Below, one piece after another: positions 288-51,350 of a DNA stretch of 64,000 nt (positions within the stretch are counted from its first letter, which is position 1; each line of letters begins with the position of its first letter). The stretch is taken from NCBI GenBank assembly GCA_964636275.1, contig CAZWRN010000001.1, positions 22,070-86,069 of the forward strand. Direction: 5' to 3'. The DNA comes from an uncultured Gammaproteobacteria bacterium. Its GTDB lineage: Bacteria > Patescibacteriota > Microgenomatia > Daviesbacterales > UBA10151. The position numbers were made by a program, and so were the translations under genes. The notes under the pieces were generated by a model. That model searched no databases and was not told where the DNA came from. It was given only the letters and a program-made list of their open reading frames with translations.

Positions 288-743
288 ATGAAATTATTGA
301 TACTAATTGTTTTGACTCTGACCATTTTTGCCCAGCTGGCTTTGCCTGTCCATTCGGCCGCCCAGATTGGAATCAAACAACCTACTACTGGTGGAGGAAT
401 TCAGGTAGGAAAAAACGATGCTGACACTCTCTTATCCACAGTGATTCGAAATATAATCACCTTTGTTTTTACTTTTGCCAGTGTTGCTTTAGTACTCGTC
501 TTTATGTGGGGATCTGTTGACTGGATTATTTCTGGGGGTGACAAAGACAAAGTGAGTGCTGCTAGAAAAAAGATCACTGCAGCTATCACGGGCTTTATCA
601 TTTTGTCGCTTAGTTTCTTCTTTATAAGTGTGATTGGTGTGATGTTTGGGATAAATCCATTTCAAGGACTTAAAATCCCCTTTCTTGGGGAAGCTGCAAC
701 CATTGGTAATCCGCAACGTCCGACAGGGGGTAATGTCCAATGA
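288..743 (+). CDS. Small secreted double-TM pilin-like protein, paralog 2
   Basis: Signal peptide MKLLILIVLTLTIFAQLALPVHSAAQ; TM1, loop WGSVDWIISGGDKDKVSAARKK, TM2; starts 1 nt after the upstream gene. Confidence 0.5.
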   Translation: MKLLILIVLTLTIFAQLALPVHSAAQIGIKQPTTGGGIQVGKNDADTLLSTVIRNIITFVFTFASVALVLVFMWGSVDWIISGGDKDKVSAARKKITAAITGFIILSLSFFFISVIGVMFGINPFQGLKIPFLGEAATIGNPQRPTGGNVQ

Positions 744-1147
744 AACAAAAAAAGATTATTTTACCCTTTTTATTAGCTCTTCTTATATTTAATCCACTTT
801 CAGCCCAAGCTTTTGATATAACTGTTCCAAATACAATAACCCAACCTGTAACAAACTCTCAGGCAGCCAGCCAAGGAGTTGGCTCAATGATCAGCAACGT
901 AATCACATTAATTTTTTCTTTCTCCGGGGTGGCAGTAGTTTTGTATTTTTTATGGGGAGCCTTTGACTGGATTATGTCTGGAGGTGATAAAGAAAAAGTT
1001 GGAAATGCGAGGAAAAAGATGACTACTGCCATAATCGGTTTACTTTTACTCTCACTTACTTTCGCAATTATGGGTATCATCAGCCAACTCACATCAGTGA
1101 ATATATTGGGAGATCTGACACTTCCCCGATTTGGAGCAAACAACTAG
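740..1147 (+). CDS. Small secreted double-TM pilin-like protein, paralog 3
   Basis: Signal peptide ending AQA; loop WGAFDWIMSGGDKEKVGNARKK between two TM helices; overlaps the upstream stop by 4 nt. Confidence 0.5.
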   Translation: MKQKKIILPFLLALLIFNPLSAQAFDITVPNTITQPVTNSQAASQGVGSMISNVITLIFSFSGVAVVLYFLWGAFDWIMSGGDKEKVGNARKKMTTAIIGLLLLSLTFAIMGIISQLTSVNILGDLTLPRFGANN

Positions 1148-1595
1148 GATGATGAAAATAATAACCATTTTTTTAGCTCTGTCATTATTTATATTCCCGG
1201 TATCTGCCTGGGCGCAAACAAACTCTAAACAAAATAATGCAGGAAGCACCTTTAGAATAAACCAACCGACAGGTTATGGTGTCCAAATTGACGGGACAGC
1301 TGACAATATTATTGGCGTTTTGGTCAAAAATGCCATAATTCTGATTTTTTCTTTTTCAGCTTTAGGAGTTATTGCCTATTTTTTATGGGGAGCTTTTGAC
1401 TGGATTGTTTCTGGTGGAGATAAAGAAAAAATTAACTCAGCCAGAAAAAAAATGACTCATGCTTTGTTTGGTTTAGCTATTCTTTCATTGTCGTTTGTGA
1501 TTATTACTGTTGCTGGAGAGATTGTAGGTTTTAATCCGTTGAAAGAGCTATTATTCCCAGCACTTGGTGATCAATCCTCAACCGTGACTCCTTAA
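1131..1595 (+). CDS. Small secreted double-TM pilin-like protein, paralog 4
   Basis: Signal peptide; loop WGAFDWIVSGGDKEKINSARKK between two TM helices; the true start is possibly the MMKII Met a few codons in. Confidence 0.5.
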   Translation: MEQTTRMMKIITIFLALSLFIFPVSAWAQTNSKQNNAGSTFRINQPTGYGVQIDGTADNIIGVLVKNAIILIFSFSALGVIAYFLWGAFDWIVSGGDKEKINSARKKMTHALFGLAILSLSFVIITVAGEIVGFNPLKELLFPALGDQSSTVTP

Positions 1596-1654
1596 ACTAA
1601 GTAATATAACGCCATTTTTTTGCTTTCTAGAGTATCTTATAGTATAATATAGGC

Positions 1655-2719
1655 ATGTTTAATTCTAGTTTAAATTGCCTAAAAACCTCTCTAACCGGTC
1701 TAATTTTGTCCGGAGTTATATTTAGTGTTTTCGCTTATCCAATCCAGATATCGGCGGATAGTATTACATGGGAACCGGGATACGAAAGTACTTTTGAGAG
1801 TGGCTCAACCCCTACCCCAGCCAACCCCCAAGGTCAAAACTGGATATTTAATCCTATCCGCCAGGTTGGACAAAATACTCAGTTTGGAGGCTATGATCCA
1901 ATTCGAACTGTCGGCAACAACTCAACATTTAATACATATGAGCCGATCAGAACTGTTGGCAATAACTCCACTTTCAATACTTATGAACCGATTCGGACTG
2001 TAGGACAGACCACCACTTTTGGCAGTTACGAACCAATTCGTGCTGTGGGACAAAATACTCAATTTGGAACCTACGACCCTATTAGACGGGTTGGTCAGGC
2101 GACTCGATTTGGGTCCTATGATCCTATTAGACAAGTAGGTCAAAATACCTCATTTGGCGCTTACGATCCAATCCGCCAGGTTGGACAGAATACTCAGTTT
2201 GGAAATTATGATCCTATCCGCCAGGTTGGACAAAATACTCAGTTTGGAAATTATGATCCGATCAGAACTGTCGGACAATCAACCAGTTTTTCAAGCTATG
2301 ACCCCATCCGCCGTGTAGGTCAAAATACCTCATTTGGCGCTTACGATCCAATCCGCCAGGTTGGACAGAATACTCAGTTTGGAAATTATGATCCGATCAA
2401 AACTGTGGGACAAAATAACGCAGCGCCGGCTTACAACCCGATTGTGATACCAAATCTGGAAAACAATCCATATCGATACAATGCTATTCAGGTGCCAAAT
2501 ACTGGTAACTCGGGTGTGACGTACAATCAACCGGTGGTTCCAGCTGCTGGAAGCAATAACCCGGCTTACAACCAACCATTAATTCCACCTACTGGAAATA
2601 GTTCTACGACTTATAATCAGCCGGTCGTCCCCACAGCTTCGACACAGCCCCAGGTAATTGTGGTTGATCCTTCAACATATAGTAGTATTCGTGAACTACC
2701 TAAAACAGGCCTTCGCTAA
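1655..2719 (+). CDS. Secreted tandem-repeat protein (about 13 x 16-aa YDPIRxVGQNTxFGx units) with a C-terminal LPKTG
   Basis: N-terminal signal/TM segment; highly regular 48-nt repeats in the sequence; Pro/Asn-rich tail ending ELPKTGLR; embedded within the pilin paralog array. Confidence 0.6.
   Translation: MFNSSLNCLKTSLTGLILSGVIFSVFAYPIQISADSITWEPGYESTFESGSTPTPANPQGQNWIFNPIRQVGQNTQFGGYDPIRTVGNNSTFNTYEPIRTVGNNSTFNTYEPIRTVGQTTTFGSYEPIRAVGQNTQFGTYDPIRRVGQATRFGSYDPIRQVGQNTSFGAYDPIRQVGQNTQFGNYDPIRQVGQNTQFGNYDPIRTVGQSTSFSSYDPIRRVGQNTSFGAYDPIRQVGQNTQFGNYDPIKTVGQNNAAPAYNPIVIPNLENNPYRYNAIQVPNTGNSGVTYNQPVVPAAGSNNPAYNQPLIPPTGNSSTTYNQPVVPTASTQPQVIVVDPSTYSSIRELPKTGLR
1850..2445 (+). repeat. In-frame tandem 48-bp repeat array inside the CDS
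   Basis: Near-identical units, e.g. gatccaatccgccaggttggacagaatactcagtttggaaattatgat recurs at about 2164, 2212 and 2347; the larger block 2112-2215 is duplicated at 2300-2397. Confidence 0.85.
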
Positions 2720-2748
2720 TCTCGAGGTATTGACAAGGTTGTTTCTTC

Positions 2749-3165
2749 ATGATTATGATTAATTCAATCATGAAAAAGCTTTCTGCCGCTTTTGCTTCTG
2801 TCGCTGGATATTTCACATTAGCTTCTTCTGCTTTGGCACTTCAAGTAAACACACCAACTAATATGGGTATTGATCCAAAGACAGCTCCTAGTACTATTTT
2901 GACAAGCGCTTTAACTATCGTTTATATCGTTGCAGCACTGCTTGTTCTCTATTTTTTGATCATGGGAGCTTTTAAATGGATCACCTCTGGTGGTGACAAA
3001 GATGCTATCGGAAAAGCTCGCGGCGCTATCATAAATGCTTTGATTGGTCTGGCTATATTAGCTTTGGCTGTAGTGATAGTCATAGTTGTTGGAAAGATCT
3101 TGAATATTAATATTTTGGGCAACTTCACTATCCCCAACCTGATGGGTACTGCAACCGACATTTAA
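2749..3165 (+). CDS. Small secreted double-TM pilin-like protein, paralog 5
   Basis: Signal peptide; loop MGAFKWITSGGDKDAIGKARGA between two TM helices. Confidence 0.5.
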   Translation: MIMINSIMKKLSAAFASVAGYFTLASSALALQVNTPTNMGIDPKTAPSTILTSALTIVYIVAALLVLYFLIMGAFKWITSGGDKDAIGKARGAIINALIGLAILALAVVIVIVVGKILNINILGNFTIPNLMGTATDI

Positions 3166-15997: not shown

Positions 15998-16086
15998 AGA
16001 ATAAACCAATAAACAAATAACCCAATGTCAAATTCCCAATTATTGAGAATTTGTTTATTTGAATATTGGATTATTTGTATATTTAT
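15998..16086. repeat. CCAAT-rich imperfect palindromic element (copy A), between the VirB4 N-terminal ORF and the VirB4 ATPase ORF
   Basis: aataaaCCAATaaacaaataaCCCAATgtcaaattCCCAATtattgagaatttgtttatttgaatATTGGattatttgtatattt; related copies at 24414-24470, 24581-24629 and 25086-25165. Confidence 0.7.
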
Positions 16087-23296: not shown

Positions 23297-24409
23297 CTAA
23301 CTTAAGCGGATTGGCATAATCACATATTCCAGTCCTTCGATGCCTTCTGGTTTGATTAAAGCCGCAGAGAGATTTCCGGAAAATTCAATCCTGACTTTTT
23401 CGGAATTTACTGAAGACAAAGCATCTGTCAGGTATTTAGCATTAAAGGCGATCTGGATCGGGTTTTGCCCCGTCTGAGCCTCTATTTCAGTCTCTTGCTC
23501 CCCTACTTCTCTGGCCTGAGAAGAGATTTTTATTTTTCCTTCCAAAGTCTCCATTTTGATAACATTCGCTTCTGTTTTAGCAAAAACCGATGCCAACTTG
23601 ACGGCTTTTAATAAATCTGTTCGATCGATATGGGTGATATTTTGAAATTCAGTCGGAACTATTTTTTCCCAGGATGGAAAATTACCCTCAATCAGCCGAG
23701 AAGAAGCCTGTGTATCCCCTACTTTAAAAATAATCTGGTTGTCACTGGTTCCAATCTCAACCAGTCCTGATTCCGACTTTTCAATATCTTCGCTAATCAG
23801 CCTGACAACTTCTTCTAGGGTTCTTCTGGGTATCAGAGATCTAAATGGTTGATCAGTTTCACTCTCGAGGCTCATTTTTTTGTGAGCCAGCCGAAAACCA
23901 TCAGTTGCAACCAACTCTAAGGTATGTTTGGTAATCTCGGTTAATATTCCAGTTAAAACAGGTCTGCCGTCATCAGCTGCAGCAGCAAAGGCGATCTGAG
24001 GGACAGAATCTTTTAGTACCGCAGCTTGAACAGAGGCGGCTTTTTCTCCGGCCAATGGTATAGCTGGAAACTCGGCAGACGAGATACCATTTAAAGTGAC
24101 ATTAAAGTTTTTAGCTGAAATTCGAAGTTGTTCGCCGCCGGATTCGAGAGTTAGTTCTAAGCCACTTAAAGACGAGATGATCTCTTGAAATGTTTTAGCT
24201 GGTACTGTTAGATCCCCTTCTTCTTCCACGCTTGCATTAATCGATTTAACAACACCAATTTCCAGATTGGTAGCAGATAAAACTAATTTATTTCCCTGAG
24301 CCTGTAACAGGATATTGGCCAAAACAGGTAAAGTGGTACGAATTCCGACTGATCTTGAAACAGCTTGTAGTGGACCATTTAAATCTGATTGTTGAATTTT
24401 TAATCGCAT
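23297..24409 (-). CDS. dnaN: DNA polymerase III beta subunit (sliding clamp)
   Basis: MRLKIQQSDLNGPLQAVSRSVGIRTTLPVLANILLQAQGNKLVLSATNLEIG and full-length clamp; start set at the internal Met (24409) since the track extension runs into the repeat element. Confidence 0.93.
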   Translation of the reverse strand: MRLKIQQSDLNGPLQAVSRSVGIRTTLPVLANILLQAQGNKLVLSATNLEIGVVKSINASVEEEGDLTVPAKTFQEIISSLSGLELTLESGGEQLRISAKNFNVTLNGISSAEFPAIPLAGEKAASVQAAVLKDSVPQIAFAAAADDGRPVLTGILTEITKHTLELVATDGFRLAHKKMSLESETDQPFRSLIPRRTLEEVVRLISEDIEKSESGLVEIGTSDNQIIFKVGDTQASSRLIEGNFPSWEKIVPTEFQNITHIDRTDLLKAVKLASVFAKTEANVIKMETLEGKIKISSQAREVGEQETEIEAQTGQNPIQIAFNAKYLTDALSSVNSEKVRIEFSGNLSAALIKPEGIEGLEYVIMPIRLS

Positions 24410-24413
24410 AATG

Positions 24414-24470
24414 GAATAAACCAATAACCCAATAGACAAATAAACCAATTCTTGAATTAAGAATTCGCTG
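24414..24470. repeat. CCAAT-rich element, copy C (left arm), abutting the dnaN start
   Basis: aataaaccaataacccaatagacaaataaaccaattcttgaattaagaattcg. Confidence 0.6.
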
Positions 24471-24580
24471 TTTTTGGATAATTGTTTAAAGTGTTTTTTG
24501 GTAATTTTTCAACCGCTTTAAGAACTTCAACAACGAATTCAAAAATTCTTTCATATATATCGTGTTTATATTCATTATTC

Positions 24581-24629
24581 GCCATTTGTTTATTGGGTTA
24601 TTTGTATATTTGTTTATTCAGTAAATGGC
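24581..24629. repeat. CCAAT-rich element, copy D (right arm, ATTGG orientation)
   Basis: gccatttgtttattgggttatttgtatatttgtttattcagtaaatggc, closely matching the right arm of copy A. Confidence 0.6.
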
Positions 24630-24633
24630 AGAT

Positions 24634-25113
24634 TTACTTAAGACCTTTAACAACTCTTTCAACTTCGTCTTCGGTGACCTTAATCAAGCGAAAATAAACT
24701 CGCTGATGCTCTATGAGGGTTTTAATATGTTTTTCCTCTGGTGTCAAGGCAGCACTTGTTCCCGACTTCACTTCGATGAAATCAATTCTTTCCCCATTTT
24801 TGACTCCAACAAAATCAATTGGCCATCCTAAAGGAATAATTCGGTCATAATCATAACGAAGTTCAGCATACGTTAAAAGTTCAGCCATCTTGCCCTTTTG
24901 TGGATTGATCGATCCCTGAATGGTCTGAAGTACCCTAACTGGCAGATTATTTACCTGTTGATAAAGGTCAATAAAATCCTGTGGGATATCTGTACGTGGT
25001 TTGGCTTGGAGTCTGCCAATTAAATAAGCGATGATTAATCCTAAAATAATAAACCCGATAGTAACCCAGTTAAATTCCATGATTAAGAATAATCCAATAA
25101 CCCGATAAACCAA
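24634..25113 (-). CDS. Membrane-anchored PD-(D/E)xK nuclease, Hjc-like (archaeal-type Holliday junction resolvase fold)
   Basis: N-terminal TM WVTIGFIILGLIIAYLIG; the core AEL...PIDFVGVKNGERIDFIEVKSG parallels Hjc AERE...KVDLVAGNGKKYLCIEVK (Glu, Asp, E-V-K catalytic triad). Confidence 0.55.
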   Translation of the reverse strand: MVYRVIGLFLIMEFNWVTIGFIILGLIIAYLIGRLQAKPRTDIPQDFIDLYQQVNNLPVRVLQTIQGSINPQKGKMAELLTYAELRYDYDRIIPLGWPIDFVGVKNGERIDFIEVKSGTSAALTPEEKHIKTLIEHQRVYFRLIKVTEDEVERVVKGLK

Positions 25114-25165
25114 TGCCCAATTTCCAATTATTGGAGTCTGGTTTATTTGGAGATTTGTTTATTAG
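25086..25165. repeat. CCAAT-rich palindromic element, copy B
   Basis: aataatCCAATaacccgataaaCCAATgcccaatttCCAATtattggagtctggtttatttggagatttgtttatt, alignable with copy A over about 80 bp. Confidence 0.7.
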
Positions 25166-25169
25166 GCTA

Positions 25170-25382
25170 TTATACAGTATTGAGTTATCCCGAGAGTTAT
25201 CAACAAGGCTGGTGAATATAAACTTTATTATTTATATACAGTAATGGTATTTATAGGGGGTGTGAATAAGTATATAACTTAGTATTTTAGCTTCACTTTT
25301 CGGATAATTTTGGTGTTGAAAAGCGGTGGATAATTGTGGATAACTTGGTGGATAAGTTGGGGATAAATTGTTGATAAGTAGT
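25170..25382. promoter_or_regulatory. oriC: oriC core: DnaA-box cluster plus an AT-rich unwinding-element candidate
   Basis: TTATCCCGA (25186-25194) and TTATCAACA (25198-25206) on the plus strand; AT-rich stretch 25207-25300; then on the minus strand TTATCCACC (25325-25333), perfect TTATCCACA (25335-25343), TTATCCACC (25347-25355) and weaker GGGGATAAA / TTGATAAG. Confidence 0.75.
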
Positions 25383-26729
25383 TCATCCGGCTAAATTTTG
25401 CTTTATTTCCATTACAACTCTTTGGATTTCTCTGTCTCTTGAGATAGCTGACTTGATCTTATCCACACCGTGCATAACTGTTGTATGGTCTCTACCACCC
25501 AAAACCTGGCCAATTTTTTCAAAAGGCATATTACATTCAGTTTGCATCAGGTACATGGCTATTTGGCGAGGCATGACGAGCTCTTTTTGTCTTCTGGGGC
25601 CGGTAATATCTGCCATTTTGAGATTGAAATAATCGTTTACTGTCGACAACAGTTTTTTATGGTCAACCTTCTGGTTTTGATTTAGCTGTGGTCCCCCCAA
25701 GTATCTTGAAACAAATTCAATAGTCGGTTCTTGATTCATCAGCTTACTAGTTTCTAATATTTGTATCAGCTTTCCTTCTAGTTCCCGAGTGTTGGATTGA
25801 ATTGATTCAGCAATTAAGGTTAGGCTTTCTTCAGGTAGTGTTTGTCCTTTCTCTACTAGCTTAGCTTTTAAGATGGCTACTCTGGTTTCAAAATCAGGGA
25901 GTTGGAGATCGACCATAAGACCACCTTGAAATCGAGATCTTAAACGGTCTTCGAGTTTGGTTAGTTCATTTGGTGGACGATCAGATGTAAGGACTATTTG
26001 GGCGTTTTTGGTGTGAAGTTCATTAAAAGTATGGAAAAATTCTTCCTGGAATGAATCTTTGCCGGCGATAAATTGAATATCGTCAACTAAAAGACAGTCA
26101 CAGTCTCGATATTTTTGACGAAAAGCGGTTGTACCTTTTCTTTGAATTGATTCAACGAAATCGTTTAAAAATCTTTCTGATGAGACAAACACCAGTTTGG
26201 CTCGAGGGTTTTTTTCTAATATAGCGTTGCCAATGGCATGCATGAGATGGGTCTTCCCTACTCCAGATGGTCCATACATAAAGAATGGATTATATGATTG
26301 GCCTGGATTTTGAATAATTGCTTGGGCTGCAGCGAAAGCTAAATTGTTGGTCGGTCCGACAACAAAATTTTGAATAGTGTATTTTTTATTCAAGGCGGTA
26401 GTTGGTTTTGGTGCCCCAGGCATTTCTATAGTAAAGAGGTCGTCATCTTCTTCTGTTTGGATGATATTTTTTTTATTGTCTAAAGACGGGTCGATAGTGT
26501 AGGAGATTGTCAGCGTGTCGCCTATGACAGCCTGGATTGATTCGTTGAGTACCGGGCCATAACGCAATAATTGTTGCCCTTTGACAAAAGCTGACGGAAC
26601 GGCTAAAACGATCTCGTTGTTTTCGATCTTGCGAGCTTCGGTTTTACCAAACCAGGTTCTAAAATTGTGGGCATCCAGTTTTTGTTTGAGCTGAGCTTGG
26701 ATTTTTTGCCAGGTTGCTTGAGGGTCCAT
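25383..26729 (-). CDS. dnaA: Chromosomal replication initiator DnaA
   Basis: Walker A GPSGVGKTHLMHAIGN, Walker B LLVDDIQFIAGK, C-terminal DNA-binding MPRQIAMYLMQTECNMPFEKIGQVLGGRDHTTVMHGVDKI; ATG at 26729 (MDPQATWQKIQ...) preferred over the GTG-extended track start. Confidence 0.95.
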   Translation of the reverse strand: MDPQATWQKIQAQLKQKLDAHNFRTWFGKTEARKIENNEIVLAVPSAFVKGQQLLRYGPVLNESIQAVIGDTLTISYTIDPSLDNKKNIIQTEEDDDLFTIEMPGAPKPTTALNKKYTIQNFVVGPTNNLAFAAAQAIIQNPGQSYNPFFMYGPSGVGKTHLMHAIGNAILEKNPRAKLVFVSSERFLNDFVESIQRKGTTAFRQKYRDCDCLLVDDIQFIAGKDSFQEEFFHTFNELHTKNAQIVLTSDRPPNELTKLEDRLRSRFQGGLMVDLQLPDFETRVAILKAKLVEKGQTLPEESLTLIAESIQSNTRELEGKLIQILETSKLMNQEPTIEFVSRYLGGPQLNQNQKVDHKKLLSTVNDYFNLKMADITGPRRQKELVMPRQIAMYLMQTECNMPFEKIGQVLGGRDHTTVMHGVDKIKSAISRDREIQRVVMEIKQNLAG

Positions 26730-26741
26730 GAGGCCAATACT

Positions 26742-26760
26742 AGTGGATAAGTTGTCCACA
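26742..26760. promoter_or_regulatory. Two DnaA boxes immediately upstream of the dnaA start (autoregulatory candidate)
   Basis: agTGGATAAgTTGTCCACA: TTATCCACT (26742-26750) and TTGTCCACA (26752-26760). Confidence 0.6.
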
Positions 26761-26949
26761 GAAAAGGGAGAGAAACTAGCAAGAAGTGTATCAGTAGATA
26801 ATTTACAATTTTCAATTTACAACTTACAGTTTTCAAATAAATTTAAATTCTTAGAATTTGTAAATTGTAATTTGATTACTAAATTGACAAATAGAAATTG
26901 AAAATTCTTCACTCTTGGTTTTTAGCTTCAACTAGGTTATAATGTACGC

Positions 26950-35531: not shown

Positions 35532-35894
35532 AAATTTCTAATTACTCTAATTTCTAATTTCTAATTTCTAAACAATATTAAAAACTTTAATTTTTTAGAA
35601 ATTACTAATTAGTAATTAGAACTTACCTTCTACTTATCCACCGGACTCTGTAAAGTATAAATTACAAAGTATAAAGTATAAAACTCTGAAATTGAAGCTA
35701 ATTGATATGGTGGGGTTCTTCTCTTTTCGGTTATCCTCCGGACTCTTTTGCACGTATAGGTCTAGTAAGTGGATTAGTTGATTGGTTAATCCGTTAATCA
35801 GGATTTTTTGCTTTTCCGATGAACTAGTTCACTGTTTAACCAATTACTTTCTTATGGTTGAATTCGTGAGGCTAAACGTGATATAGTACTCCCC

Positions 35895-40406: not shown

Positions 40407-41572
40407 AGTGTTAGATTTGGATCTGCCTGTAATTGTATAATATTATCTATGGGTTTTGCAAAAAAAGCTGCTGAGGCAATCATAGCGGCGTTGTCGCCGC
40501 AATATTTGAGATTGGGGAAATGAATGGTAGCTTCCAGCTTTGAGCTTTTAGCTTCAAGTGTTAGTTGGTCGCGGAGTTTTTGATTAGCAGAGACTCCTCC
40601 CCCGACGATAATTGTCGAAACATTGTTTTCCCGAGCAGCTTTGATAGTTTTTTTTACTAAAGATTTGACGATAGTATTTTCCAGGGTTGCACACAGATCT
40701 TTGGCTTCTTGGGTATCATTTTCAATATTTTTTTCTTTAACTAGATTGAGAAAGGCTGTTTTAAGACCAGAAAAAGAGAAATCAAAATCATGTGAGTTAC
40801 TCATTGGTAAAGGCAGAGTAAATTTTTTTGGATTTCCTTCTTTAGCTAGCTGGGAGATCTTGGGGCCACCCGGATAGGGATAGCCCAAAAGCCGGGCACA
40901 TTTATCAAAACATTCACCTGCAGCATCATCTCTGGTGCCGCCAATATATAAATATTTGTTATGGGATTTGAACAAAACCAGATCGGTGTGACCTCCAGAA
41001 ACGAGTAGACCGATACAGGGGAATTCAGGTTCTTTCCAGTTACCGGTTTTCGGTTGTCTGTTATCAGAATTAAGTTGATCAGTTATCGGTTTATCAGTTT
41101 TAGAAACAGACTGACCGACAACAGATAGACTTTCACCTGAAAACTGATGACTGAAAACTGATGACTGACTAATCCAGTTAGCATAGTAATGACCTATGAG
41201 ATGATTGATAGGCAATAGTGGCTTATTCCAGGCTAGTGCCAGAGTCTTGGCTGTTTCGACTCCGACGAGTAAAGAACCGATTAAACCAGGTCCATAGGTT
41301 ACTGCTATAGCATCTATCTGACTGATTTGTTGTGTCAATGTCTCAGTAGGAAACGCTTGAGATAATGCCTCTTTTAATACAGGGATCATGGCTTTTACCT
41401 GCTCTCTGGCTGCCTGTTCTGGGATGATTCCGCCAAATTTAGCCTGTATTTCGGCTGAGGAAGCTATAACACTGGATAAGACTACTATTTCATCGCCGGT
41501 TTTTTTTAATATTGCGGCAGCTGTTTCGTCACAGGATGTTTCAATGCCGAGAATTATCTTAAAGTCATTCAT
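40403..41572 (-). CDS. tsaD: tRNA N6-adenosine threonylcarbamoyltransferase TsaD (Kae1/Gcp) with an internal low-complexity insertion
   Basis: ILGIETSCDETAAAI, HLIGHYYAN, LLVSGGHTDLV; an about 45-aa insert SQSSVFSHQFSGESLSVVGQSVSKTDKPITDQLNSDNRQPKTGNWKEPEF sits between conserved blocks. Confidence 0.88.
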   Translation of the reverse strand: MNDFKIILGIETSCDETAAAILKKTGDEIVVLSSVIASSAEIQAKFGGIIPEQAAREQVKAMIPVLKEALSQAFPTETLTQQISQIDAIAVTYGPGLIGSLLVGVETAKTLALAWNKPLLPINHLIGHYYANWISQSSVFSHQFSGESLSVVGQSVSKTDKPITDQLNSDNRQPKTGNWKEPEFPCIGLLVSGGHTDLVLFKSHNKYLYIGGTRDDAAGECFDKCARLLGYPYPGGPKISQLAKEGNPKKFTLPLPMSNSHDFDFSFSGLKTAFLNLVKEKNIENDTQEAKDLCATLENTIVKSLVKKTIKAARENNVSTIIVGGGVSANQKLRDQLTLEAKSSKLEATIHFPNLKYCGDNAAMIASAAFFAKPIDNIIQLQADPNLTL

Positions 41573-47237: not shown

Positions 47238-48104
47238 ATGGAAAAGGCAATTTTAAAAACACTGGTTTACGCTGATTTATTTGACTATCCTTTACTCGCC
47301 CAGGAAATTCATAAATGGCTGATAGGCCGGCAATCCAGTATAGAACAGGTCGATAAAATCCTTATCAGGTTAGTAAAAAATAAAAAGATAGGTTTCAAAA
47401 AAGGAGTTTATTTTTTAAAAAATCGATCAAAGCTGGCGGATATCCGGCATGAAAGGGAGGTCATCTCACAGAAGTACTATCAGAAAGCGGTATGGGTAGC
47501 CAGACTTTTTAAGATCGTCCCCTGGATTCAGTTGGTTGGTATTTCTGGTAGTTTGGCTTTGCGCAATGCAGATAAAAAAGCGGATATCGATCTGTTTGTT
47601 ATAACCAGAAGAAAAAGAGTTTGGTTGTCCAGGTTACTTTCCGCATTTATTTTAGAGTTGCTGGGCGTGAGGCGAGCCCGTGAGGCTTCAGTGACAGAGA
47701 GTGCTGGTAAAATCTGTCTTAATTTGCTGATTTCCGAAGACGCTATGCTTCAGTCCACCCACAATTTATATATCGCTCACGAAGTATTGCAGATGAAAGT
47801 ATTATGGGAAAGACAAAAAACATACCAGCGATTTTTAGAAGCCAATGAATGGGCGTTTGAATTTTTACCAAACTGGATTGGGATGACTGCGGTAGAAAAA
47901 AAGATTGGCAAAGGGATTAAAAAACAGTGGCGTTTTTTTGATTGGTTGGAATATTTAGTTGAGGTATTGCAAAGAAGATATATGGGGCGGGTGTTGAGGG
48001 AGGAGAAGGTTGGTCATCAGATGGCCTATTTTCACCCCGATGATGCAGGTGAATGGGTGATGAGGGAATATAGTAAAAAAATTATAAAGTATAAAGTATT
48101 ATAA
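47238..48104 (+). CDS. Pol-beta-superfamily nucleotidyltransferase-domain protein
   Basis: GISGSLALRNADKKADIDLFVI (hG[GS]...DxD); start set at MEKAIL to avoid overlap with murB; the C-terminus overlaps the AAAGTATAAAG repeat. Confidence 0.45.
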   Translation: MEKAILKTLVYADLFDYPLLAQEIHKWLIGRQSSIEQVDKILIRLVKNKKIGFKKGVYFLKNRSKLADIRHEREVISQKYYQKAVWVARLFKIVPWIQLVGISGSLALRNADKKADIDLFVITRRKRVWLSRLLSAFILELLGVRRAREASVTESAGKICLNLLISEDAMLQSTHNLYIAHEVLQMKVLWERQKTYQRFLEANEWAFEFLPNWIGMTAVEKKIGKGIKKQWRFFDWLEYLVEVLQRRYMGRVLREEKVGHQMAYFHPDDAGEWVMREYSKKIIKYKVL

Positions 48105-48165
48105 AGTATAAAGTATAAAGTATAAGCGAAGCTTTCATGCTCCGCATATAAAGTATAAAACGGAG
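48084..48165. repeat. Tandem AAAGTAT(T)A(T)AAAG short repeats plus a CTCCG/CGGAG hairpin
   Basis: attataaagtataaagtattataaagtataaagtataaagtataagcgaagctttcatgctccgcatataaagtataaaacggagttgc; family members at 35651-35684, 48832-48870 and 51321-51352. Confidence 0.75.
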
Positions 48166-48830: not shown

Positions 48831-48940
48831 GAAAGAAAGTATAAAGGATAGATTATAAATTATAAATAAGAATTATGAATGGATATTTTCGATTTATGAT
48901 TCAAGATTTACGAATATCCTAATACTAATTAACTAACCCA

Positions 48941-51319: not shown

Positions 51320-51350
51320 AAATTACAAAGTATAAAGGATAAAGTATAAA

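What the first reader, a model, noticed from the sequence alone, without database searches (positions are those of the whole stretch)
24634..25113. Membrane-anchored Hjc-like PD-(D/E)xK nuclease encoded inside the origin, between the DnaA boxes and dnaN
The catalytic core (E...PIDFVGVKNGERIDFIEVK) parallels archaeal Holliday-junction resolvase Hjc (E...VDLVAGNGKKYLCIEVK). Unlike Hjc it carries an N-terminal TM helix. A junction-resolving or structure-specific nuclease tethered to the membrane and expressed from within oriC is an unusual arrangement. It could act in origin-proximal recombination or chromosome segregation at the membrane, or in processing incoming DNA.
Basis: partly seen in the sequence, partly recalled or inferred. 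Interest (0 to 1): 0.6.

Follow-up and report, generated by a model that had tools for sequence, protein, structure and literature searches.

The report
Membrane-anchored nuclease gene beside the replication origin
A small, real gene next to the chromosome's replication origin encodes a membrane-tethered DNA-cutting enzyme of a family predicted in 2005 but never tested; what is unusual is that a whole lineage of ultra-small bacteria keeps it between dnaA and dnaN and conserves it more tightly than either.

Summary
The ORF is real. Its likely start is the ATG at 25080, giving 148 aa rather than 159. It is a member of Pfam PF10107 / COG4741 ([quoted passage not shown]). It has an N-terminal membrane anchor, a long helix and a minimal PD-(D/E)xK core. 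E67, D89, E/D103 and K105 are conserved in 64 diverse homologues. Charge distribution places the nuclease domain in the cytoplasm.

This protein-level picture was published in silico in 2005, so it is not new. The specific link to Hjc is weak: only the D...ExK hairpin aligns, and VRR-NUC is at least as close.

The gene is not inside the origin. DnaA boxes lie only on its dnaA side. In 75 non-redundant Daviesbacteria-type loci the order is always dnaA, DnaA boxes plus an AT-rich stretch, nuclease, dnaN. The nuclease often overlaps dnaN. It is more conserved than DnaA (75/75 loci) and DnaN (74/75). A more distant CPR lineage keeps the same order.

Most other family members examined lie in phage-like contigs, 14 of 16 viral loci just downstream of a T7-like primase-helicase.

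Best reading: a cytoplasm-facing, membrane-tethered, structure-specific endonuclease recruited as a replication-operon core gene. The function is inferred, not shown.

The parts
25383..26759 (-). dnaA (458 aa as listed from GTG)
   Evidence: ORF. tblastn matches to the DnaA genes of 80 related loci, whose products carry Pfam DnaA_N/Bac_DnaA/Bac_DnaA_C.
25081..25382 (.). dnaA-nuclease intergenic region (IG1, 302 bp, 32% GC): candidate oriC. It must also hold the nuclease-dnaN promoter and 5' leader.
   Evidence: DnaA-box density (<=1 mismatch) in the equivalent region of 75 loci is 17.4 per kb, against 0.67 per kb in the rest of those loci. No terminator-like site; one weak promoter-like site at 25203-25176.
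25325..25377 (-). Cluster of five DnaA boxes, same orientation, 10-12 bp apart, starting 6 nt after the dnaA stop
   Evidence: one perfect TTATCCACA, four with one mismatch. Tandem period 11. 67 of 75 related loci have at least 2 forward boxes within 100 nt of the dnaA stop.
25197..25269 (.). Two further one-mismatch DnaA boxes (25261-25269 on the - strand; 25197-25205 on the + strand, i.e. reversed) bracketing the most AT-rich 50 nt (25206-25255, 22% GC): candidate unwinding region
   Evidence: In relatives the most AT-rich 50-nt window sits at a median 0.76 of the way from dnaA to the nuclease gene. A reversed box lies within 60 nt of the nuclease ATG in 35 of 75 loci.
24634..25080 (-).
25015..25065 (-). 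Codons for the N-terminal membrane helix (residues 6-22, VTIGFIILGLIIAYLIG), followed by RLQAKPR
   Evidence: Hydropathy and charge analysis. AF2 helix 4-25.
24766..24882 (-). Codons for the catalytic core: E67 (24880-24882), D89 (24814-24816), E103 (24772-24774), K105 (24766-24768)
   Evidence: Invariant or E/D columns in 64 diverse homologues. In the AF2 model E67 is on helix 1, D89 is at the start of strand 2, and E103/K105 are on strand 3. Codon positions read.
24410..24633 (.). Nuclease-dnaN spacer (IG2, 224 bp), the longest of 76 loci. It holds inverted arrays of an 8-nt unit (AATAAACC, 24415-24449 and 24584-24618) flanking a 42-aa ORF (24457..24585, - strand).
   Evidence: The ORF has no Pfam or NCBIfam match. 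In relatives this spacer has a median of 5 bp.
23297..24409 (-). dnaN (370 aa from ATG 24409; the listed 383-aa ORF starts at an upstream TTG)
   Evidence: tblastn alignments to relatives start at residue 1 of the 370-aa form. Homologues carry the three DNA_pol3_beta Pfam domains.

Best explanation
SHOWN:
- The gene encodes a 148-aa single-pass membrane protein of the PF10107/COG4741 family.
- It has a hydrophobic anchor at residues 6-22, with no positive charge before it and a cluster of Arg/Lys after it.
- It then has a long helix (34-77) and a minimal alpha-beta-beta-beta-alpha-beta PD-(D/E)xK core carrying E67, D89, E103 and K105.
- In Daviesbacteria-type CPR bacteria it is the first gene after the DnaA-box/AT-rich origin region downstream of dnaA.
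- It usually abuts or overlaps dnaN.
- It is under stronger protein-level constraint than DnaA or DnaN.

INFERRED:
- The anchor inserts N-out/C-in, so the nuclease domain faces the cytoplasm while held at the membrane on a helical stalk.
- The enzyme is a metal-dependent, probably dimeric, structure-specific DNA endonuclease. It would cut branched replication or recombination intermediates such as Holliday junctions, reversed or converging forks, and flaps.
- It is made together with the sliding clamp as a housekeeping accessory of chromosome replication or segregation.
- It comes from the same stock as nucleases found in phage replication modules.
For: Identity:
- PF10107 scores 40.2 bits against a cut-off of 23.8. 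63 of 64 diverse homologues hit the same family.
- G63, E67, Y78, D89 and K105 are invariant, and position 103 is E or D.
- The AF2 model (pLDDT 88) has the canonical order of secondary-structure elements.
- All Foldseek neighbours are small PD-(D/E)xK nucleases, several of them junction- or structure-specific: VRR-NUC, Hjc, FAN1, NucS.

Topology:
- 112 of 125 representatives have the N-terminal helix.
- Mean K+R is 0.04 before the helix and 2.96 in the 15 residues after it; 111 of 112 have more after.
- Three topology predictors gave the same cytosolic result in PMC1189080.

Replication link, seen twice in unrelated contexts:
- (a) dnaA-origin-nuclease-dnaN order in 75 of 75 non-redundant loci. 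The median nuclease-dnaN gap is 5 bp, and there are 23 overlaps, mostly ATGA.
- The same order, followed by dciA, occurs in a lineage only 54% identical.
- (b) Relatives with viral context sit a few genes downstream of a T7 gp4-like primase-helicase in 14 of 16 IMG/VR loci.

Housekeeping status:
- Mean identity to the window protein is 72.6%, against 53.9% for DnaA and 53.8% for DnaN. The nuclease is higher than DnaA in 75/75 loci and higher than DnaN in 74/75.
- Synonymous sites are nearly as scrambled as in dnaN: same-codon fraction 0.465 against 0.405.
- Identity co-varies with that of the flanking genes: rho 0.40 with DnaA and 0.58 with DnaN.
- There is no PADLOC defence-model hit.
Against: - No biochemical data exist for any family member. 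Substrate preference is inferred from fold neighbours whose Foldseek E-values are all >=1e-3.
- Sequence-level kinship to true resolvases is marginal.
- One phage (L089) carries both this gene and a T7 endonuclease I homologue, so in phages it need not be the resolvase.
- Gene adjacency to dnaN shows co-expression, not functional coupling.
- No canonical clamp-binding motif was found.
- Dimerisation could not be modelled with these tools.
- I could not check whether Daviesbacteria lack RuvC or RecU.
Confidence: 0.45

Rival explanations
1. A gatekeeper or scavenger nuclease on the cytoplasmic face of the membrane. It would degrade DNA as it enters the cell, either phage or foreign DNA (exclusion) or DNA taken up by competence machinery, to supply nucleotides to an organism with poor biosynthesis. 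Phage-borne copies would serve superinfection exclusion or host-DNA breakdown.
For: - Membrane tethering with a cytoplasm-facing active site suits action at a DNA entry point.
- This is one of the functions proposed for COG4741 in PMC1189080.
- Phage copies sit among nucleotide/DNA-metabolism genes: Pyr_excise, NT5C, DNA methylase.
- L089 already has an endonuclease I-type resolvase.
- That CPR bacteria depend on salvage is general knowledge, not tested here.
Against: - Fixed position in the dnaA-dnaN operon, overlap with dnaN, and conservation above DnaA and DnaN across 75 loci are not typical of exclusion or defence genes.
- No PADLOC match.
- No competence or uptake genes are adjacent in the loci examined.
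- The nearest fold neighbours are structure-specific rather than degradative nucleases.
Confidence: 0.25
2. Mainly a membrane tether for the origin or for replicating DNA, built like the phage phi29 protein p16.7 (N-terminal membrane helix, coiled coil, C-terminal DNA-binding domain). The nuclease fold would serve chiefly as a DNA-binding module.
For: - Same three-part build: TM helix 4-25, long helix 34-77, compact C-terminal domain.
- Found in replication gene clusters in both phages and cells.
- In phages it is preceded by another protein with an N-terminal hydrophobic segment.
- The p16.7 comparison is from my own knowledge.
Against: - All four catalytic positions are invariant or conservatively E/D across very divergent members. 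This argues for a working active site.
- There is no sequence or fold similarity to p16.7.
Confidence: 0.12
3. A selfish or defensive element (restriction-like nuclease, toxin or homing-type insertion) that happens to have lodged next to the origin.
For: - PD-(D/E)xK is the classic restriction-enzyme fold.
- Relatives are phage-borne.
- Two members hit the Shedu SduA_C model weakly.
Against: - No partner methylase, antitoxin or ATPase in any of 75 loci.
- Universal synteny, vertical co-variation with flanking genes, and very strong purifying selection.
- No PADLOC hit.
- The Daviesbacteria-type sequence is absent from IMG/VR.
Confidence: 0.05
4. A secreted or surface-exposed nuclease, as in the original COG label 'predicted secreted endonuclease'.
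For: The database label is repeated in PMC3424549. An N-terminal hydrophobic segment could in principle be a leader peptide.
Against: - There is no positively charged n-region.
- The hydrophobic stretch is at least 17 residues long.
- It is followed by about 3 Arg/Lys, in 111 of 112 representatives. This is the reverse of a Sec signal peptide.
- Predictors in PMC1189080 also gave a cytosolic domain.
Confidence: 0.03

Closest known systems
Pfam PF10107 (Endonuc_Holl) / COG4741, 'predicted endonuclease distantly related to archaeal Holliday junction resolvase'
   Same: Scores above the family's gathering cut-off. Has the E-(V/I)D-E(V/I)K motif, a minimal core of 4 strands and 2 helices, an N-terminal transmembrane helix and a predicted cytosolic nuclease domain. 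All of these were described in PMC1189080.
   Different: COG4741 was described as mostly archaeal, sporadic and of unknown role. Here a bacterial (CPR) subfamily is a fixed, highly conserved gene between oriC and dnaN. Most other metagenomic relatives examined are in phage-like contigs. No member has been characterised experimentally as far as the searchable literature shows.
Archaeal Holliday junction resolvase Hjc (PF01870; PDB 1hh1, 1gef, 2wcw, 2eo0)
   Same: Small PD-(D/E)xK core with Glu on helix 1, Asp at strand 2 and E-x-K on strand 3. Spacing is nearly identical: D89-E103-K105 against Sso Hjc D42-E55-K57. Foldseek superposition gives rmsd 3.2-3.5 A over about 71-76 columns.
   Different: - No HMM-level match.
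- hhalign aligns only 22 columns, P=0.019.
- Foldseek E-values are 0.18-0.55.
- Hjc is a soluble dimer without a membrane helix or long stalk.
Stand-alone VRR-NUC nucleases of phages and bacteria (PF08774; PDB 4qbl/4qbn/4qbo)
   Same: They are the best-ranked fold neighbours in BFVD (E 1e-3 to 1e-2, prob about 1.0) and among the top in PDB. They are the only other nuclease family hit weakly by several members: 8 of 64, best E=0.0063. Both are phage-associated minimal PD-(D/E)xK domains.
   Different: Matches are below family thresholds. VRR-NUC proteins lack the N-terminal membrane anchor.
YraN / UPF0102 family
   Same: Reported as the closest family by HMM comparison (P about 1e-5) in PMC1189080. 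It is a minimal PD-(D/E)xK core of unknown function.
   Different: Not re-tested here. YraN proteins are soluble and have no link to dnaA-dnaN.
Phage phi29 p16.7 (membrane-anchored organiser of phage DNA replication; from my own knowledge)
   Same: Same overall build (N-terminal membrane helix, helical stalk, small C-terminal DNA-interacting domain) and location in a replication gene cluster.
   Different: Unrelated fold and no catalytic residues. The resemblance is architectural only.

Membership tests
PF10107 / COG4741 | Profile HMM score above the curated gathering cut-off | tested here: met
   40.2 bits against 23.8, E=3.9e-10. 63 of 64 aligned homologues also match.
PF10107 / COG4741 | Conserved E ... 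(V/I)D ... E(V/I)K catalytic motif | tested here: met
   E67, I88-D89 and E103-V104-K105 are present. E67, D89 and K105 are invariant, and position 103 is E or D, in 64 diverse members.
PF10107 / COG4741 | N-terminal hydrophobic transmembrane helix with the nuclease domain predicted cytosolic | tested here: met
   Residues 6-22. Charge bias is 0.04 K+R before the helix against 2.96 after it, over 112 representatives. This agrees with PMC1189080. It is a prediction only.
PF10107 / COG4741 | Minimal PD-(D/E)xK core (4 strands, 2 helices) | tested here: met
   AF2 model, pLDDT 88: helix 34-77, strands 80-83, 90-94 and 98-106, helix 114-123, strand 128-135.
PF10107 / COG4741 | Nuclease activity | not testable with these tools
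   No experimental report was found for any member.
Archaeal Hjc (PF01870) | Sequence-profile membership | tested here: not met
   No PF01870 match at E<=1 in any of 64 members. hhalign against four PDB-verified Hjc sequences gives 22 columns, P=0.019, probability 2.5%.
Archaeal Hjc (PF01870) | Catalytic Glu / Asp / Glu-x-Lys arrangement and spacing | tested here: met
   D89...E103-x-K105 aligns with Sso Hjc D42...E55-x-K57. E67 lies on the preceding helix.
Archaeal Hjc (PF01870) | Fold superposes significantly on solved Hjc structures | tested here: inconclusive
Archaeal Hjc (PF01870) | Soluble homodimer that cleaves four-way junctions | not testable with these tools
   The protein has a membrane helix, unlike Hjc. 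Dimerisation and cleavage were not testable.
VRR-NUC (PF08774) | Profile match or fold match | tested here: inconclusive
   8 of 64 members hit weakly, best E=0.0063. It gives the top Foldseek hits in BFVD (E 1e-3 to 1e-2) and in PDB (4qbo E=0.05).
Gene located inside oriC (DnaA boxes on both sides) | DnaA-box clusters both upstream and downstream of the gene | tested here: not met
   Boxes occur only in the dnaA-nuclease spacer, at 17.4 per kb. There are none in the nuclease-dnaN spacer in 75 loci, and a single one-mismatch match in the window.
Known anti-phage defence systems (PADLOC-DB) | Match to a defence-protein model | tested here: not met
   No hit for the window protein or for two of three relatives tested. 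The third gave one weak, irrelevant hit: Cas6f, E=0.007.

The most novel reading that the evidence does not exclude
A membrane-anchored PD-(D/E)xK nuclease of phage-replication-module stock has been domesticated by a CPR lineage (Daviesbacteria and at least one sister group). It would be an essential, clamp-co-expressed component of chromosome replication or segregation at the membrane, for example the lineage's junction- or fork-processing enzyme. This would explain why it evolves more slowly than DnaA and DnaN.
Probability: 0.3. Interest if true: 0.65.

Novelty: new member of a known kind. Interest (0 to 1): 0.4.

Why it matters
The protein belongs to a family whose fold, motif, membrane anchor and orientation were predicted twenty years ago, so by itself it is ordinary. 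Three things are worth knowing.

1. An entire lineage of ultra-small, uncultured bacteria keeps this gene as the first gene after the origin. It is often translationally coupled to the sliding-clamp gene and is conserved more tightly than DnaA or DnaN.

2. Most of the other relatives whose context was examined sit in phage-like contigs, usually a few genes downstream of a primase-helicase. Two unrelated contexts therefore point to DNA replication for a family with no known function.

3. This gives a concrete, cheap experiment: assay the soluble domain on junction and fork substrates, determine its topology, and test complementation of resolvase mutants.

If it proved to be a membrane-tethered replication or recombination nuclease, it would add a component to the poorly known replication apparatus of CPR bacteria. 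It would also give the first functional handle on PF10107.

Tried and rejected
1. PDB sequence searches with the protein and with a 64-sequence profile found nothing relevant.
3. A second AF2 model of the soluble domain alone (pLDDT 87) lost the fourth strand and gave only noise in Foldseek, E>=2.9.
4. hhalign against Hjc, with a single sequence and with four PDB-verified sequences, aligned only the D...ExK hairpin.
5. PHROGs gave no hit for the window protein, a phage homologue or its neighbours. PADLOC gave none. tblastn of a phage-type member against INPHARED phages and PLSDB plasmids gave none.
6. Clamp-binding idea. 'IPQDFIDLY' (residues 32-40) is invariant in Daviesbacteria and looks like a partial QxxIxxY PIP box. 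The Gln is absent in the nearest outgroups: P0122 has 'VPDVLSLY' and P0121 has 'LPTDFISIY'. No QL[SD]LF-type motif is conserved. Rejected as unsupported.
7. High conservation might have reflected DNA-level origin constraints. Rejected, because the same-codon fraction among identical residues is 0.465 against 0.405 in dnaN.
8. High identity might have reflected recent horizontal spread. Disfavoured by fixed synteny and by positive rank correlation with DnaA and DnaN identity.
9. The 42-aa ORF in the nuclease-dnaN spacer recalled the N-terminus of 'four-helix-bundle' proteins. No Pfam or NCBIfam match supports this.
10. The very diverse alignment A2 was too divergent for locus scanning, so a narrower one was used.
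11. Literature searches for CPR origins or for resolvases in Daviesbacteria found nothing specific.
12. Pfam scanning of 10 other small window ORFs found no RuvC, RecU or YqgF. The rest of the genome could not be checked.

Full report
THE OBSERVATION

The minus-strand ORF 24634..25113 is present and contains the quoted peptide. Database homologues are 148-152 aa and align from the internal Met. The true start is therefore almost certainly the ATG at 25080, giving a 148-aa protein, MEFNWVT...KGLK. The gene is real. There are 961 homologues at E<=1e-3. The only significant Pfam match is PF10107, 'Endonuclease related to archaeal Holliday junction resolvase' (40.2 bits, cut-off 23.8). Source names on close homologues place the window in Candidatus Daviesbacteria, within the CPR/Microgenomates.

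THE PROTEIN

An alignment of 64 homologues down to 25% identity has G63, E67, Y78, D89 and K105 invariant. Position 103 is E or D, so the motif reads E...(I/V)D...(E/D)(V/I)K.

An AlphaFold2 model built from that alignment has pLDDT 88. It shows:
- a membrane helix at 4-25;
- a long helix at 34-77 carrying E67;
- strands at 80-83, 90-94 (D89 at its start) and 98-106 (E103, K105);
- a helix at 114-123, a strand at 128-135 and a terminal helix.

This is the canonical alpha-beta-beta-beta-alpha-beta PD-(D/E)xK core.

HOW HJC-LIKE IS IT?

I verified four Hjc sequences against the PDB. Profile comparison aligns only the hairpin D89...E103-x-K105 with Hjc D42...E55-x-K57, over 22 columns at P=0.019.

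None of the 64 members touches Pfam Hjc at E<=1. Eight touch VRR_NUC weakly. 'Hjc-like' is therefore fair at the level of fold class and catalytic geometry, but not as a specific relationship.

Feder & Bujnicki (2005) described COG4741 as follows (PMC1189080):
- a minimal core, the same motif, an N-terminal transmembrane helix and a predicted cytosolic nuclease domain;
- closest by HMM comparison to YraN;
- function only guessed at: toxin, guard against foreign DNA, or nucleotide scavenging.

Steczkiewicz et al. (2012) list it as group 85 with no experimental reference (PMC3424549).

TOPOLOGY

Of 125 complete-looking cluster representatives, 112 have the hydrophobic segment, starting around residue 4. 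Mean K+R is 0.04 before it and 2.96 in the 15 residues after it, and 111 of 112 have more after. By the positive-inside rule this is a reverse signal-anchor (N-out, C-in). It is not a Sec leader, so the 'secreted' label is unlikely. This is a prediction, not a measurement.

THE LOCUS

On the minus strand the order is:
- dnaA (25383..26759);
- a 302-bp spacer;
- the nuclease (24634..25080);
- a 224-bp spacer;
- dnaN (23297..24409).

The first spacer begins with five same-orientation DnaA boxes at 10-12-bp spacing (25325-25377). Two more boxes follow, one of them reversed, bracketing the most AT-rich 50 nt (25206-25255, 22% GC). Cumulative GC skew turns at about 22-24 kb. No terminator-like site lies between dnaA and dnaN.

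COMPARATIVE EVIDENCE

A scan of one genome per species returned 80 loci, and two metagenomic look-ups added more. Wherever the contig reaches, dnaA lies upstream and dnaN downstream.

In 75 non-redundant loci:
- The dnaA-nuclease spacer has a median of 186 bp. Its DnaA-box density is 17.4 per kb, against 0.67 per kb elsewhere in the loci.
- 67 of 75 have at least 2 forward boxes within 100 nt of the dnaA stop.
- The AT-richest window sits about three-quarters of the way to the nuclease gene.
- 35 of 75 have a reversed box within 60 nt of the nuclease ATG.
- The nuclease-dnaN spacer has a median of 5 bp and no DnaA boxes at all. In 23 loci the genes overlap, mostly as ATGA.

The origin is therefore contained in the dnaA-nuclease spacer. 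The nuclease is the first gene of a nuclease-dnaN unit that starts at the origin. It is not 'inside' the origin.

The window's 224-bp second spacer is the longest seen. It holds inverted arrays of an 8-nt repeat around an unmatched 42-aa ORF.

CONSTRAINT

Identity to the window protein averages 72.6% for the nuclease, 53.9% for DnaA and 53.8% for DnaN. The nuclease is higher than DnaA in 75 of 75 loci and higher than DnaN in 74 of 75.

This is protein-level constraint. Among identical residues the same-codon fraction is 0.465, against 0.405 in dnaN.

Nuclease identity rank-correlates with that of DnaA (rho 0.40) and DnaN (rho 0.58). This fits vertical co-inheritance rather than recent spread.

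A lineage only 54% identical (P0122) has rnpA-dnaA-nuclease-dnaN-dciA.

THE WIDER FAMILY

A full HMMER scan of 1.84 billion cluster representatives finds only 204 clusters at E<=1e-3. Seven representatives outside the Daviesbacteria-type subfamily were looked up. Six lie in phage-like contigs and the seventh (P0138) is on a contig too short to tell:
- P0273, P0279, P0281 and P0285 (34-41% identical to the window protein) lie in 60-114-kb contigs. These carry a T7 gp4-like primase-helicase, Amidase_2, Pyr_excise or Phage_endo_I and many co-directional ORFans.
- P0126, whose best local match to the window protein is 57% identical, sits with a DNA methylase, NT5C and NADAR.
- P0141 lies in a 205-kb ORFan-rich contig.
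- A scan of IMG/VR with the phage-type alignment gave 16 viral loci. The Daviesbacteria-type alignment gave none.
- In those viral loci a module recurs: primase-helicase, then a protein of about 330 aa with its own N-terminal hydrophobic segment, then the nuclease (often overlapping), then a protein of about 238 aa. Primase-helicase identity within this module ranges from 29% to 100%.
- None of these matched PHROGs, cultured-phage genomes or plasmids.

MECHANISM

The shown facts are the fold, the conserved active-site residues, the membrane anchor with its charge bias, the operon position, the overlap with dnaN, the strength of constraint and the phage replication-module context.

The inference has four parts:
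- The domain faces the cytoplasm on a helical stalk.
- It is an active, metal-dependent, probably dimeric endonuclease.
- Its substrates are branched replication or recombination intermediates.
- It acts as a housekeeping accessory of replication or segregation.

I put this at about 0.45. The main rival, at 0.25, is a membrane-face nuclease that destroys or recycles incoming DNA. That rival fits the anchor and the 2005 speculation. It also fits the phage L089, which already encodes an endonuclease I homologue. It does not fit the fixed dnaA-dnaN position and the extreme conservation.

A p16.7-like DNA tether (0.12), a defence or selfish element (0.05) and a secreted nuclease (0.03) are less likely, for the reasons given in the rival explanations.

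VERDICT

This is a new member of a known but experimentally uncharacterised family.

The new points, as far as the searchable literature shows, are these:
- the gene has lineage-wide fixation as the origin-proximal partner of dnaN;
- it is conserved more tightly than DnaA and DnaN;
- the rest of the family examined is mostly phage-associated, usually within a replication gene module.

Interest is moderate at 0.4. It would rise to about 0.65 if the domesticated, replication-essential reading were confirmed.

Noticed in passing
window 24415-24449, 24584-24618, 25088-25114, 25131-25163; also 16000-16026, 16056-16084, 26800-26836, 35533-35682, 41073-41168, 48079-48125, 48836-48880, 51327-51350: Short tandem arrays of 7-8-nt A/T-rich units (e.g. 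AATAAACC x3-4, AATTTAC x5) sit in many intergenic regions. Some form inverted pairs just upstream of the nuclease and dnaN start codons. Close relatives have different units in the same spacer (GATAAAC in L006, AATATCCA in L007). This looks like a genome-wide feature of unknown role rather than an origin-specific one.
   Followed up: partly
window 24457-24585 (-), within the 224-bp nuclease-dnaN spacer: A 42-aa ORF (MANNEYKHDIYERIFEFVVEVLKAVEKLPKNTLNNYPKTANS) lies between inverted 8-nt arrays, in a spacer that is only about 5 bp in most relatives. It is possibly the remnant of an inserted gene. It has no Pfam or NCBIfam match.
   Followed up: partly
window 26742-26760 and 26800-26836: Two one-mismatch DnaA boxes in opposite orientation straddle the dnaA start codon, and a 7-nt tandem array lies just upstream. 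This could be dnaA autoregulation or a second origin half (bipartite origin around dnaA).
   Followed up: no
loci L006-L085: Many contigs that encode Daviesbacteria-type dnaA-nuclease-dnaN loci are titled 'uncultured Gammaproteobacteria bacterium' in their public records (CAY*/CAZ* accessions). This is evidently a bulk mislabel.
   Followed up: no
L088 (NZCX01000010.1, 61,922 bp, 'Candidatus Pacearchaeota archaeon') and L094 (IMGVR_UViG_2811995112_000007, 61,922 bp): A contig binned into a DPANN archaeal MAG has the same length and a near-identical gene set as an IMG/VR viral genome. It carries a T7-like primase-helicase and an endolysin-type amidase, so it is probably a phage genome mis-binned as archaeal.
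   Followed up: partly
L087 3006-4004 and 4473-5189 (and equivalents in L086, L089, L094-L105): The phage nuclease gene is flanked by two conserved proteins of unknown function. One is about 330 aa with its own N-terminal hydrophobic segment. The other is about 238 aa, with only a faint PDDEXK_1 hint in L089. Together with the primase-helicase they form a conserved module with no PHROG, Pfam or NCBIfam match.
   Followed up: partly
P0138 (L111 453-1586) and P0268: Two unusual family architectures. One is a 377-aa protein combining PF10107 with HEAT repeats. The other is a 100-aa protein whose N-terminal half looks YraN-like and whose C-terminal half matches the Daviesbacteria-type sequence (FIEVKSG...LTEEEKHIK).
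   Followed up: no
window 288-3165 and 1892-2424: Three paralogous T4SS_pilin genes (288-743, 740-1147, 2749-3165) flank a 354-aa ORF (1655-2719) that contains 45/135-nt tandem repeats.
   Followed up: no
75 related loci, last 60 nt before the nuclease ATG: About half of the loci (35 of 75) have a DnaA box in reversed orientation immediately upstream of the nuclease start codon. It might couple expression of the nuclease-dnaN unit to DnaA occupancy, or mark the origin boundary.
   Followed up: partly
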